Source: the human T2T-CHM13v2.0 reference genome, Homo sapiens. From it: 64,000 bases of DNA. The position numbers were made by a program, and so were the translations under genes. Position 1 is the first letter of the stretch. Each line of letters begins with the position of its first letter. This document shows, one piece after another, positions 34,929 through 58,200 of this stretch. Location: NCBI RefSeq assembly GCF_009914755.1, contig NC_060925.1; one strand, given 5' to 3'. Below the pieces are notes generated by a model. It saw only the letters and a list, made by a program, of their open reading frames with translations. It was not told where the DNA came from and searched no databases.

Positions 34929-35000
34929 ATGAACCAGGTTGTTCAGCCCTTAATGAGCAGACACTCTGCATGTAGAGGCAGCCAGGCCCACCTCTCATGG
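34929..35000 (+). CDS. TMCC2: Alternative coding first exon, 24 aa MNQVVQPLMSRHSACRGSQAHLSW; 484-aa isoform if joined to exon 3
   Basis: agaATG (A at -3); 72 nt open; donor TGG|gtgagt in phase 0, matching exon 3. Confidence 0.72.
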
Positions 35001-35643
35001 GTGAGTCAATGAATACATTTTAAAAATCAAATTAGAAAAATCCTGTCAAGCAGGAGTCTCTGGTATGCAGCTATTTTATGAGGAGGGAAAACGTGAACCT
35101 TGCTGTCTTTGGTTGCCTAGGGCTCCCATGAAGACCTCCTGAGCAGGGGGAAGACGTTGGGGTGGGCAGTGGGCACTGTCGGAAGCTGGTGAAGGACTGT
35201 GGATGTTTGCAGGGGCCTGGGGGAAGTGGGGCAGGCTCATTAGCTGGGGAGCTTCTCTGTGGGGCTCTGCCATGTGGCTCACTGTGCCCAAGATATCCAG
35301 ATGGGAGGGAGGAACTCTTTTTTTGCTGCTTATGGAAGACGAGACCCAGACACTTTGGGTGACCTGATGAGGGGACGGTTCCCTGGGTTCAGGGTGATCA
35401 TGGGGGAAATGGTTGTTCTTGTGACTATTTTATATCCTTCTTTAGAACCCTCAGCTTTGTTAGGTGTATGGCCTGGTTGATCTTTATAACATACCTGTGA
35501 AGTTGGCAGAGCAGGTGTTATCTCCATTTTACAGATGAGTAGACTAAGGCCTAGAGGAAAAGAGACTGCTTGCCTATGGCACCCAGCTAGGTCTTGGCAG
35601 GGAGACAAGGGATCCTAGTCTGTACCCAAGACTCATCTGAGAG

Positions 35644-35653
35644 GTGACGTCAC
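35644..35653. promoter_or_regulatory. Perfect palindromic CRE GTGACGTCAC
   Basis: 10-bp palindrome with an intact CpG in CpG-poor intron. Confidence 0.5.
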
Positions 35654-36432
35654 TGAACCCGGCTGGGGACCATTTTATGCAAAGTCTATGGAGAGCAGGT
35701 TTGCCTCAGCCCGAGTGGGATGATTTTATCTCTTGGTTGCCATTTCCCCTTCAATTGCATAGATTTCCTGACCTGGAGCTGTCCTTCCAGGAATGGGCGT
35801 GGCCCTGGGGGTCCTGAGGAGAGAAAGGTTGCTTCCCTGTCACAGAGGAAAAAGGTCTTCCAGCCATCGGTAAACCCTGCTCTGTCAGCTGACTCCCCCA
35901 GACCCAGAGGCCCTGGGCTGGTGTGAGAAGCAGTAGTGGTTCTGCCCTGATCTCTGGGCATGAATAGGAGGTATTCTTCTCTCCCTAGTAAACACAGCCC
36001 CACATGCTCTCTGCAAGATCCCTGGCGGTTACTAGCATCTATTTTTAATTCATAAGCCTCCCCCACTCCCCCACACCCCCTGCCATTGTTTAGAACTCAC
36101 CAGCTGGCTTTCGGACCAGAGCAGCCCTGGCAGGGTTGAGTCCAGCCCTGGCGGGGTTGAGTTACCGAAACACCCTGGAGGCAGCTAAATTTCCTCAGCT
36201 GTCCTGGAGAGGCTCACCCCAGCCCCACCCCAAGAAAGTAGGAGACCTCAAGCCCCAAAGGGAGCAGGGTGTGACGGGGGACAGATAGGGGCTCACGGTC
36301 CAGGGAAGCAGCTCAGCCTTGGTGATGGTAATTTGGCTGTTGGTTATTCCTGCTAGATCCACTTAGTTGTCTTTGAGGTTGTGCCTTCAATTACTTCCCT
36401 GTTTAAAAACAAAAACAAAAACAAAACATTCT

Positions 36433-56375: not shown

Positions 56376-56647
56376 GTAATGGAGGGCCTGGGAGAGGTGT
56401 CAGCAGAGGCAGGGTGGCCCGCTGAGCTGCGTTGTTAGTGAACATGGGGTGGCGAGGGCAGGCAGGCAGGGCACAAAGTGTAGGCGGTCAGCCCTGAGGG
56501 AGAGGCCTGCTCAAGGCAGGAGCCTTATGAAGTGGTTGAGTCCAGAGAGAAAATTTGTCTCATTCCTCAGAAATCCAACCCCATGACTCCAGTGAGGCCT
56601 CAGACCTGCCTGGTCCATGTGCTGGAGCTTTAAGAGCTCTGGGCTGG

Positions 56648-56957
56648 GGCCAGGCGTAGTGGCTCACACCTGTAATCCCAGCACTTTGGGAGGCCAAGGC
56701 AGGCAGATCACTTGAGGTCAGGAGTTCGAGACCAGCCTGGCCAACACGGTGAAACCCCATCTCTACTGAAAATACAAAAATTAGCCAGGCATGGTGGTGG
56801 GTGCCTGTAATACTGGCTTCTCGGGAGGCAGAGGCAGGAGAATCCCTTGAACCAGGGAGGTGGAAGGTGCAGTGAGCTGAGATTACGCTACTGCAGTCCA
56901 GCCTGGGCAACAGAGCGAGACTGTGTCTCAAATAGATAAACAAACAAATAAATAAAA
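56648..56957 (+). mobile_element. Alu (sense), ~310 bp upstream of exon 3
   Basis: Full Alu with flanking aagag(c/t)tctgggctg repeat. Confidence 0.92.
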
Positions 56958-57265
56958 GAGTTCTGGGCTGGAGGTTCTGTCCCTTCCTGGCCGTGTGTCC
57001 CTGAACAACTTGTTTGACCTTTCTGGGCCAAAAGAGGAGCAGCTCTGCCTAGACTGCATTTTGGGGATGCTGTGGGGACGGGGTAGAGAGCAGATGTGAA
57101 AGCCCTGTGTAAGTGGCTGTCAGGGATACTGCTCTTGTGGTGGTTGTCTTCTTTTGGACTCCTGCATCCATTTTCTAGATAGAAAAACCAAGTCCAGAGG
57201 CATCCAGGGGCACTCCTATGGTCCCAGGGTTTACCCATGCTTCCTCTGCCTGCCTCTTTCCCCAG

Positions 57266-58200
57266 GTCGATAAGGGAGACCTGGTGGCCCTGAGCCTCCC
57301 CGCCGGCCATGGTGACACCGACGGCCCCATCAGCCTGGACGTGCCCGATGGGGCACCGGACCCCCAGCGGACCAAGGCCGCCATTGACCACCTGCACCAG
57401 AAGATCCTGAAGATCACCGAGCAGATCAAGATTGAGCAGGAGGCTCGCGACGACAATGTGGCGGAGTATCTGAAACTGGCCAACAACGCGGACAAGCAGC
57501 AGGTGTCACGCATCAAGCAAGTGTTCGAGAAGAAGAACCAGAAGTCAGCCCAGACCATCGCCCAGCTGCACAAGAAGCTGGAGCACTACCGCCGGCGCCT
57601 GAAGGAGATTGAGCAGAACGGGCCCTCGCGGCAGCCCAAGGACGTGCTGCGGGACATGCAGCAGGGGCTGAAGGACGTGGGCGCCAACGTGCGCGCAGGC
57701 ATCAGCGGCTTTGGGGGTGGCGTGGTGGAGGGCGTCAAGGGCAGCCTCTCTGGCCTCTCACAGGCCACCCACACCGCCGTGGTGTCCAAGCCCCGGGAGT
57801 TTGCCAGCCTCATCCGCAACAAGTTTGGCAGTGCTGACAACATCGCCCACCTGAAGGACCCCCTGGAAGATGGGCCCCCTGAGGAGGCAGCCCGGGCACT
57901 GAGCGGCAGTGCCACACTCGTCTCCAGCCCCAAGTATGGCAGCGATGATGAGTGCTCCAGCGCCAGCGCCAGCTCAGCCGGGGCAGGCAGCAACTCTGGG
58001 GCTGGGCCTGGTGGGGCGCTGGGGAGCCCTAAGTCCAATGCACTGTATGGTGCTCCTGGAAACCTGGATGCTCTGCTGGAAGAGCTACGGGAGATCAAGG
58101 AGGGACAGTCTCACCTGGAGGACTCCATGGAAGACCTGAAGACTCAGCTGCAGAGGGACTACACCTACATGACCCAGTGCCTGCAGGAGGAGCGCTACAG
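57266..58200 (+). CDS. TMCC2: TMCC2 coding exon 3 ([12 protein letters not shown]...QEERY, coiled-coil core)
   Basis: Acceptor ctctttccccag|GTC; donor CAG|gtaggt (phase 2). Contains TMCC family motifs [22 protein letters not shown] and [11 protein letters not shown]. Confidence 0.97.

What the first reader, a model, noticed from the sequence alone, without database searches (positions are those of the whole stretch)
34929..57268. Array of in-frame alternative first exons: variable N-termini on a constant TMCC core
Seen: five ATG-to-donor units in intron 2 all end at a codon boundary, matching the phase-0 acceptor of exon 3. They are 34929-35000 (24 aa), 37659-37661 (Met only), 44703-44729 (9 aa), 45518-45679 (54 aa) and 56334-56375 (14 aa). 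Each would fuse to the same 460-aa coiled-coil/TM body and drop the 249 aa of exons 1-2. Most have promoter-like motif clusters just upstream. Inference: promoter choice sets the cytosolic N-terminus, loosely like UGT1A or protocadherin variable first exons. I recall 484- and 469-aa isoforms being annotated (unverified); the 1-, 54- and 14-aa versions may not be. Caveat: I selected for phase 0 while searching, and one in three random donors is phase 0.
Basis: partly seen in the sequence, partly recalled or inferred. Interest (0 to 1): 0.85.

Follow-up and report, generated by a model that had tools for sequence, protein, structure and literature searches.

The report
TMCC2 alternative promoters and first exons
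Intron 2 of human TMCC2 holds several internal promoters whose short first exons give N-terminally shortened proteins; most are already annotated and one is the published red-cell form, so the finding is largely ordinary, apart from one 14-residue first exon that RefSeq lacks in human but that predicted isoforms of other amniotes also carry.

Summary
Each is in phase with the exon-3 acceptor at 57266, the constant body is 460 aa, and exons 1-2 encode 249 aa.

The pattern alone is not special. At a donor score no worse than the weakest of the five, intron 2 holds 38 phase-0 open units, against about 24 in shuffled sequence.

Outside evidence separates the five:
- **Three are curated RefSeq transcripts**: the 24-aa, 9-aa and 54-aa units.
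- **The 9-aa unit is the published erythroid-specific isoform.** The CRISPRi promoter guides of that paper map about 170-250 bp upstream of its exon.
- **The Met-only unit lies inside that paper's erythroid enhancer** and is covered by one of its guides. It has no support as a coding first exon.
- **The 14-aa unit is absent from human RefSeq** but matches predicted N-termini in elephant seal, vaquita, platypus and Komodo dragon, at the same length and junction.

The variable exons are not paralogous. This is ordinary alternative-promoter use, not a UGT1A or protocadherin-type array.

The parts
34805..35000 (+). Alternative first exon of the 24-aa unit. Coding part 34929-35000 gives MNQVVQPLMSRHSACRGSQAHLSW and a 484-aa isoform.
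   Evidence: RefSeq NM_001297611.2, curated. Translation and donor TGG|GTGAGT. Donor score 8.97, 52nd percentile of real donors. The rabbit isoform P0013 starts MSRHCARAGGQAHFSG and aligns to 34953-34997, 10 of 15 identical. TATTTAA at 34787; CpG o/e 0.24.
37417..37662 (.). Published late-erythroid enhancer of TMCC2, delimited here only by its two CRISPRi guide sites.
   Evidence: The enhancer guide sequences printed in PMC6579117 map once each, to 37417-37436 (+) and 37643-37662 (-).
37659..37661 (+). Met-only unit (ATG|GTGAGT). Not supported as a coding first exon.
   Evidence: Donor score 10.91, 85th percentile. Context GAAGGATGG. No RefSeq transcript. Covered by enhancer guide 2. ATAAATA at 37629 would place a start at about the ATG itself. 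Three Met-only units observed against 3.15 expected.
44262..44514 (.). Erythroid promoter of the 9-aa isoform.
   Evidence: The promoter guides of PMC6579117 map to 44262-44281 (-) and 44324-44343 (+). TATTTAA at 44484; GATA-type matches at 44404 and 44420; CpG o/e 0.18.
44515..44729 (+). Alternative first exon of the 9-aa unit. Coding part 44703-44729 gives MKSKEEETA and the 469-aa erythroid isoform.
   Evidence: RefSeq NM_001297613.2. PMC11669416 names this accession as the blood-specific isoform. Donor GCT|GTGAGT scores 6.48. Elephant models P0130 and P0131 carry ...MKSKEEGPA|VEKGD. A 3-codon uORF starts at 44531.
45510..45679 (+). Alternative first exon of the 54-aa unit. Coding part 45518-45679 gives a 514-aa isoform.
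   Evidence: RefSeq NM_001331034.1. Donor CAG|GTGAGG scores 11.41, 91st percentile. The same N-terminus ending ..Q|VDKGD (GDKGD in marmot) appears in representatives of 16 placental species. The gorilla form aligns to 45518-45679 with a 7-residue gap.
56334..56375 (+). Candidate alternative first exon of the 14-aa unit. It encodes MKRKRLPMTLESRK and would give a 474-aa isoform. Not in human RefSeq.
   Evidence: Open and in phase 0, donor AAG|GTAATG scoring 5.90, 16th percentile. An in-frame TAG lies 9 codons upstream. Matching 14-residue N-termini sit at the same junction in elephant seal P0122, vaquita P0011, platypus P0018 and Komodo dragon P0030, with M.RKR........K invariant. The vaquita N-terminus aligns to 56184-56375. 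The unit overlaps the RefSeq 'H3K4me1 hESC enhancer' at 56341-56841.
57266..58200 (+). Constant exon 3, the common phase-0 acceptor for exon 2 and for the annotated intronic first exons.
   Evidence: The first in-frame Met is at body residue 131 (57656), preceded by three out-of-frame ATGs.
59437..59572 (+). Constant exon 4.
60130..60441 (+). Coding part of the constant last exon, holding the C-terminal hydrophobic segments and the stop.
   Evidence: Pfam PF10267 covers residues 98-507 of the 521-aa gorilla isoform.

Best explanation
TMCC2 is a multi-promoter gene. A CpG-island promoter at exon 1 gives the full 709-aa protein. CpG-poor promoters inside intron 2 each transcribe a short first exon, and two of them have a TATA-like match. 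Each such exon supplies a start codon plus 9-54 codons and is spliced in phase 0 to exon 3. The product keeps the whole Tmemb_cc2 core (coiled coils plus two C-terminal hydrophobic segments) and loses the 249-aa N-terminal region.

Status of the five units:
- Three are known transcripts.
- The 9-aa one is the erythroid-specific isoform. It is driven by the promoter at about 44260-44515 and by an enhancer at about 37420-37660.
- The Met-only 'unit' is a chance ATG|GT inside that enhancer.
- The 14-aa unit is most likely a fourth genuine intronic first exon, old enough to be shared with monotremes and squamates, that human RefSeq does not list.

An in-frame ATG in the first exon is needed to make an intact core. 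The body has no Met before residue 131, and three out-of-frame ATGs come first. That requirement would explain why the real first exons all carry ATG plus phase 0.

Shown by annotation or print: the three transcripts, the erythroid promoter and the enhancer. Shown here: frames, donor scores, chance rate, similarity to other species' predicted isoforms, lack of paralogy. Inferred: use of the 14-aa exon in human, and the selective reason for the ATG.
For: - RefSeq curated transcripts exist for three units.
- Frames and lengths check out.
- PMC6579117 (passages read) reports an alternative promoter and a nearby enhancer that gain accessibility late in erythropoiesis. It reports RNA-seq supporting the short isoform and CRISPRi at both elements lowering TMCC2 mRNA. 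Its guides map to 44262-44343 and to 37417-37662.
- PMC11669416 equates the blood isoform with NM_001297613.
- PMC9102901 states there are two major isoforms from alternative promoters and names a mouse counterpart transcript.
- Similar N-termini in other species: the 54-aa type in 16 placental species, the 24-aa type in rabbit, the 9-aa type in elephant, the 14-aa type in seal, vaquita, platypus and Komodo dragon.
- Promoter composition: CpG o/e is 0.89 at exon 1 and 0.12-0.34 at the intronic units.
- The first in-frame Met of the body is at residue 131, after out-of-frame ATGs at 57309, 57348 and 57456.
- The Pfam domain lies wholly in the constant body.
Against: - No reads, CAGE or peptides were available, so nothing here shows that the 14-aa or Met-only donors are used in human.
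- The 14-aa donor is weak (16th percentile).
- As a peptide alone, its match to platypus ranks 7th and to Komodo dragon 25th of 127,918 windows. Alu-derived windows score higher.
- The other-species proteins are automatic predictions kept only when the frame is open, and I could not see their genomic positions.
- The seal and vaquita models read further upstream in frame, whereas human has a stop there.
- 90% clustering of the protein database hides most isoforms, so the species counts are lower bounds and absences mean little.
- A search from the platypus N-terminus found only platypus and echidna.
- No 14-aa-like unit was found within about 19 kb upstream of the homologous exon of TMCC1 or TMCC3.
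Confidence: 0.85

Rival explanations
1. The Met-only unit is a real first exon. The erythroid enhancer would also act as a promoter, and its transcript would be spliced from the strong donor at 37661 to exon 3, giving a 461-aa protein of Met plus body.
For: It has the second-best donor of the five (10.91, 85th percentile). Its start context is strong, with G at -3 and +4. It lies in an element that opens late in erythropoiesis. A Met directly before the exon-3 homologue is the predicted N-terminus in 32 of 120 representatives, all starting MLDK[GS]E and, in the rows I read, all ray-finned fishes. So body-only proteins are plausible products.
Against: There is no RefSeq transcript. The paper calls the element an enhancer and says RNA-seq uniquely supported the short isoform from the other promoter. 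ATG|GT units occur at the chance rate, 3 observed against 3.15 expected. The TATA-like ATAAATA 30 bp upstream would start RNA at about the ATG, leaving no leader. No mammalian M|VDKGD protein appears among the 120 listed proteins, and none among the 7 fetched of the 18 further proteins. For the fish I cannot tell whether the ATG is in the same exon.
Confidence: 0.1
2. The 14-aa unit is not used in human. Either it is one of the roughly 24 chance units, or it is a relic of an exon still used in other amniotes.
For: It has the weakest donor of the 38 phase-0 units. It is not in RefSeq. It overlaps an element annotated only as an H3K4me1 enhancer. The peptide-only match is not unique in the window.
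Against: Among units that start with ATG, are open and end on a phase-0 donor, it is the one that matches four other species' N-termini. The match has identical length (14) and junction, with 9, 9, 7 and 5 of 14 residues identical and M.RKR........K invariant. The chance of a top-7 rank for one window is about 5e-5, applied to a few dozen candidate units (my arithmetic). The ATG, frame and GT are intact in this assembly.
Confidence: 0.3
3. The units form a UGT1A or clustered-protocadherin type array. That would mean duplicated variable first exons whose choice diversifies a functional N-terminal domain.
For: There are several first exons with their own starts, all joined to one constant set of exons.
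Against: An all-against-all blastn of the first-exon regions gives only overlaps of neighbouring pieces and 12-62 bp chance matches. No unit-to-unit similarity appears. The peptides are 1-54 aa, lie outside PF10267 and do not resemble one another.
Confidence: 0.03

Closest known systems
Published erythroid-specific TMCC2 isoform (ENST00000329800 / NM_001297613; Ludwig et al. 2019, PMC6579117)
   Same: Its promoter and enhancer are mapped here by the paper's own guide sequences.
   Different: The paper treats two isoforms only. It does not discuss the 24-aa, 54-aa or 14-aa first exons.
Housekeeping versus erythroid alternative promoters that shorten the N-terminus, such as HMBS and UROS (recalled from general knowledge, from no call)
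   Same: A CpG-island upstream promoter gives the long form. A tissue-specific, GATA-bearing internal promoter gives an N-terminally shorter protein with the same core.
   Different: TMCC2 loses 249 residues rather than a few, and it has at least three further intronic first exons.
UGT1A and clustered protocadherin variable first exons (their features are recalled)
   Same: Many first exons, each with its own start, spliced to shared constant exons.
   Different: Those variable exons are large tandem paralogues encoding a whole domain. Here they are unrelated peptides of 9-54 aa, and the only domain is constant.
TMCC family proteins (PF10267, Tmemb_cc2): TMCC1, TMCC3
   Same: The constant body is a full Tmemb_cc2 domain. 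The homologous exon of TMCC1 and TMCC3 opens at the same residue: IERLE.. directly after a stop in TMCC1, VERHD.. in TMCC3. Both ends of TMCC1 face the cytoplasm (PMC3891740), so the variable N-termini are presumably cytosolic.
   Different: No 14-aa-like unit was found within about 19 kb upstream of that exon in TMCC1 or TMCC3. Their transcript tables were not available to me.

Membership tests
Alternative-promoter / alternative-first-exon isoform set | Each unit is the first exon of a transcript with its own start site | tested here: inconclusive
   Met by curated annotation for 34805, 44515 and 45510, and by published CRISPRi for 44515. No transcript, reads or CAGE were available for the Met-only and 14-aa units.
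Alternative-promoter / alternative-first-exon isoform set | All first exons splice to one common acceptor and keep the downstream frame | tested here: met
   Three annotated transcripts join to 57266. All five units are open and end in phase 0 with GT.
Alternative-promoter / alternative-first-exon isoform set | Promoters are regulated separately (tissue or stage specific) | not testable with these tools
   Print shows it for the erythroid promoter only. Composition fits: a CpG island at exon 1 against CpG-poor intronic starts.
UGT1A / clustered protocadherin type variable-exon array | Variable first exons are paralogues (tandem duplicates) | tested here: not met
   blastn all-against-all of exon regions with 500 bp upstream finds no unit-to-unit similarity beyond 12-17 bp matches.
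UGT1A / clustered protocadherin type variable-exon array | Each variable exon encodes a complete functional domain | tested here: not met
   The units are 1, 9, 14, 24 and 54 aa. PF10267 starts 37 residues into the constant body.
TMCC family (Pfam PF10267, Tmemb_cc2) | Full-length match to the Tmemb_cc2 profile in the constant body | tested here: met
   Gorilla 521-aa isoform, 100% identical to human over exon 3: E 5.9e-176, profile positions 2-397 of 397.
TMCC family (Pfam PF10267, Tmemb_cc2) | N-terminus cytosolic, C-terminal segments anchoring in the ER | not tested
   Shown for TMCC1 only (PMC3891740) and assumed for TMCC2 by homology.

The most novel reading that the evidence does not exclude
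The 14-aa unit (56334-56375, MKRKRLPMTLESRK) would be a fourth intronic promoter and first exon of human TMCC2, conserved since before the mammal-sauropsid split and missing from the human RefSeq set. Its conserved basic M[KR]RKR start would give a 474-aa isoform a distinct localisation or partner. On this reading the short N-termini are not mere ATG donors. The 54-aa exon, kept open in 16 placental species, would likewise carry function.
Probability: 0.4. Interest if true: 0.35.

Novelty: already known. Interest (0 to 1): 0.2.

Why it matters
TMCC2 matters in red-cell maturation, as shown by human knock-down and mouse knockout. It is also studied in Alzheimer pathology. Knowing which promoter gives which N-terminus decides which antibodies, guides and variants touch which isoform.

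Three points have practical value:
- The erythroid enhancer and promoter can be placed to the base in this assembly.
- The body has no usable start before residue 131, so every productive internal promoter must bring its own in-frame ATG.
- One conserved 14-residue first exon appears to be missing from human RefSeq and is cheap to check in public RNA-seq.

None of this changes how alternative promoters are understood.

Tried and rejected
1. Pattern alone as evidence. Rejected: 38 phase-0 units at the same donor threshold, about 24 in shuffles, and Met-only units at the chance rate.

2. Origin of the units from transposable elements. None overlaps a masked repeat of 100 bp or more.

3. Paralogy among the variable exons. 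None found.

4. A 14-aa-like unit upstream of the TMCC1 and TMCC3 homologous exons, about 19 kb each. None found. The only basic-start unit is MRKK|GTGATC, 1521 bp upstream of the TMCC1 exon, which is too thin to use.

5. A search from the platypus N-terminus (region 1-40). It found only platypus and echidna and was uninformative.

6. The N-terminus type '..GKRILLLNSLLGVF' before LDKGD, seen in gull, turtle, coelacanth, caecilian and bichir. It has no convincing match in the human window.

7. Peptide-only significance of the 14-aa match. It is not unique in the window, because Alu-derived frames score as high. The case rests on peptide plus ATG plus phase-0 donor plus length.

8. A literature search with min_terms 2 was badly framed and returned no TMCC2 paper.

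9. My searches for print on further TMCC2 first exons turned up only the two-isoform account. Among those listed papers whose passages I read, none mentions the 24-aa, 54-aa or 14-aa first exons; the other papers in those listings I saw only as listings and did not open.

10. Supplements were closed. Figure S6 and Table S7 of PMC6579117 (isoform expression by tissue, oligonucleotides) and Figure S4F of PMC3128100 (the open-chromatin site in the TMCC2 intron) may bear on which starts are used. I did not see them.

11. What I saw of each paper:
- PMC6579117: 12 of 15 passages.
- PMC9102901: 9 passages.
- PMC11669416: 10 passages.
- PMC3891740: 12 of 15 passages.
- PMC3128100: 3 passages.
- All others: search listings only.

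12. The HMBS/UROS and UGT1A/protocadherin comparisons are recalled, not from any call.
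Full report
**What is in the sequence.** The five units are exactly as described.
- 34929-35000 encodes 24 aa (MNQVVQPLMSRHSACRGSQAHLSW), followed by GTGAGT.
- 37659-37661 is ATG followed by GTGAGT.
- 44703-44729 encodes MKSKEEETA, followed by GTGAGT.
- 45518-45679 encodes 54 aa, followed by GTGAGG.
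- 56334-56375 encodes MKRKRLPMTLESRK, followed by GTAATG.

Exon 3 begins a codon at 57266. The constant coding exons (57266-58200, 59437-59572, 60130-60441) give 460 aa, and exons 1-2 give 249 aa. No unit, nor the 200 bp upstream of it, lies in a masked repeat.

**Is the pattern more than chance?** No. I built a donor weight matrix from 288 GT donors (of 297 annotated donor sites) of curated RefSeq transcripts in 20 other chr1 loci.

| Unit | Donor score | Percentile of real donors |
|---|---|---|
| 24 aa | 8.97 | 52 |
| Met only | 10.91 | 85 |
| 9 aa | 6.48 | 21.5 |
| 54 aa | 11.41 | 91 |
| 14 aa | 5.90 | 16 |

Intron 2 has 118 GT sites on the + strand that score at least 5.90. Of these, 38 have an open ATG in phase 0, 19 in phase 1 and 27 in phase 2. 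The minus strand has 79 sites with 20, 13 and 20. In 100 dinucleotide-preserving shuffles the phase-0 count is 23.7 +/- 5.1, and 2 of 100 reach 38. ATG|GT units number 3 observed against 3.15 expected.

**Annotation.** RefSeq lists nine TMCC2 mRNAs in the window. Three curated ones start in intron 2 and join directly to 57266:
- NM_001297611.2 (exon 34805-35000, 484 aa)
- NM_001297613.2 (exon 44515-44729, 469 aa)
- NM_001331034.1 (exon 45510-45679, 514 aa)

Other starts at 16258, 17243 and 18023 feed exon 2, and some of those transcripts use an ATG at 29840. The Met-only and 14-aa units have no transcript.

**Print.** Ludwig et al. 2019 (PMC6579117, passages) report four things. In late erythroblasts the reference promoter loses accessibility. 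An alternative promoter and a nearby putative enhancer gain it. RNA-seq supports the shorter isoform ENST00000329800. CRISPRi at either element lowers TMCC2 mRNA.
- Their promoter guides map once each to 44262-44281 and 44324-44343, about 170-250 bp before the exon that starts at 44515.
- Their enhancer guides map to 37417-37436 and 37643-37662.
- PMC11669416 names NM_001297613 as the blood-specific isoform, predicted at 52 kDa.
- PMC9102901 speaks of two major isoforms from alternative promoters and names a mouse counterpart.

So the 9-aa unit is a published, functionally tested isoform. The 'promoter-like cluster' at the Met-only unit is its enhancer.

**Other species.** A search with the exon-3 translation gave 974 hits, of which 120 were listed. 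I read their N-termini. A third search gave 23 more, of which I fetched 7.
- **54-aa type.** It precedes VDKGD (GDKGD in marmot) in representatives of 16 placental species, 15 of the 120 plus a fruit bat. Fourteen of the 16 carry seven extra residues (RPRLP.A after ..GTPAR). The human assembly, a colobus entry and a pig entry lack them. The gorilla form aligns to 45518-45679 with exactly that gap.
- **24-aa type.** It appears in rabbit from the second Met, aligning to 34953-34997.
- **9-aa type.** It appears in two elephant models as MKSKEEGPA|VEKGD.
- **14-aa type.** It appears, at the same length and directly before the exon-3 homologue, in four species:
  - elephant seal: MKRKRLLTTPDSWK
  - vaquita: MKRKRLLTTPGSWK
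  - platypus: MRRKRCVTVDESWK
  - Komodo dragon: MRRKRILEPDDQCK

  These share 9, 9, 7 and 5 of 14 residues with human, and M.RKR........K is invariant. The vaquita N-terminus aligns to window 56184-56375. Human has an in-frame TAG nine codons before the ATG, so the human frame starts at 56334.

As a bare peptide the 14-aa match is not unique. It ranks 7, 25 and joint 1 of 127,918 windows, beaten by Alu-derived frames. But it is the only such match that also has ATG, an open frame, a phase-0 GT and the right length.

Three caveats apply. These are automatic gene models. I could not see their genomic positions. The 90% clustering hides most isoforms.

**Why an ATG in the first exon.** The body has no Met before residue 131 (57656). 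Three out-of-frame ATGs come first, at 57309, 57348 and 57456. PF10267 starts about 37 residues into the body. A first exon without an in-frame ATG could therefore not yield an intact core. That gives a plain reason why the real first exons all show 'ATG plus phase 0'. This step is inference.

**Promoter type.**

| Start | GC | CpG o/e |
|---|---|---|
| Exon 1 | 0.75 | 0.89 |
| Five intronic units | 0.50-0.63 | 0.12-0.34 |

TATTTAA lies 31 bp before the start at 44515 and 18 bp before the start at 34805. GATA-type matches lie at 44404 and 44420. These are consensus matches only. For the Met-only unit, ATAAATA at 37629 would put a start at about the ATG itself, which argues against a translated Met there.

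**Comparison with known systems.** This is ordinary alternative-promoter and first-exon use. The UGT1A and protocadherin analogy fails for two reasons. The first-exon regions share no similarity. The variable parts are 1-54 aa outside the only domain.

TMCC1 and TMCC3 have the homologous exon opening at the same residue: in TMCC1 the open frame starts there directly after a stop. No 14-aa-like unit lies within about 19 kb upstream of it. TMCC1's N-terminus is cytosolic (PMC3891740), so cytosolic exposure of the TMCC2 N-termini is assumed by homology.

Thirty-two of the 120 representatives start MLDK[GS]E; the ones I read are ray-finned fishes. A protein of Met plus body is thus the usual prediction there. 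That fits the view that the constant body is the working unit.

**Verdict.** It is probably right for the 14-aa unit and unsupported for the Met-only unit. The only new element is the likely conserved 14-aa first exon missing from human RefSeq. Interest is low.

Noticed in passing
window 45518-45679 (around 45559): This human assembly's 54-aa first exon lacks seven residues (21 nt, in frame) that gorilla and 13 other placental representatives carry after ..GTPAR. A colobus entry and a pig entry also lack them. That could be a real deletion, an alternative splice, or models projected from the human protein.
   Followed up: partly
The strongest unannotated donor in the intron therefore sits inside a tested enhancer.
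   Followed up: yes
proteins P0042-P0120: 32 of 120 TMCC2 representatives begin MLDK[GS]E, that is Met directly before the exon-3 homologue; those I read are ray-finned fishes. Two bird entries begin MELDKGD. I could not determine whether the ATG is in the same exon.
   Followed up: no
proteins P0020, P0024, P0026, P0028, P0039: A further alternative N-terminus, '..GKRILLLNSLLGVF' before LDKGD, is shared by gull, sea turtle, coelacanth, caecilian and bichir. It has no convincing match in the human window, so it may have been lost in mammals.
   Followed up: partly
window 56281-56337: An upstream ATG at 56281 opens an 18-codon frame whose TGA overlaps the 14-aa unit's ATG (ATGA). This matters only if transcripts start upstream of 56281.
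   Followed up: partly
window 60113-60151: The predicted transcript XM_054339937.1 uses an acceptor 17 nt upstream of 60130. Its coding part ends at 60151, so it would lack the C-terminal hydrophobic segments.
   Followed up: no
G000 C8:106322981-106323853; C2:68639949-68640485; C23:152449645-152524809: The exon-3 translation also hits TMCC1P1 (7 stops), a second TMCC1 pseudogene on chr2, and three identical copies in TEX28 and its pseudogenes on chrX (38% identity over residues 35-118).
   Followed up: partly
G000 C3:132417221-132417232 (locus L029): A 4-codon unit, MRKK|GTGATC, lies in phase 0 1521 bp upstream of the TMCC1 exon homologous to TMCC2 exon 3. It is probably chance.
   Followed up: no
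TMCC2 intron, place not determined: PMC3128100 reports a platelet-volume-associated variant (rs1172147) in open chromatin of an erythroblastoid and a megakaryocytic cell line in a TMCC2 intron. I could not place it relative to the first exons.
   Followed up: no
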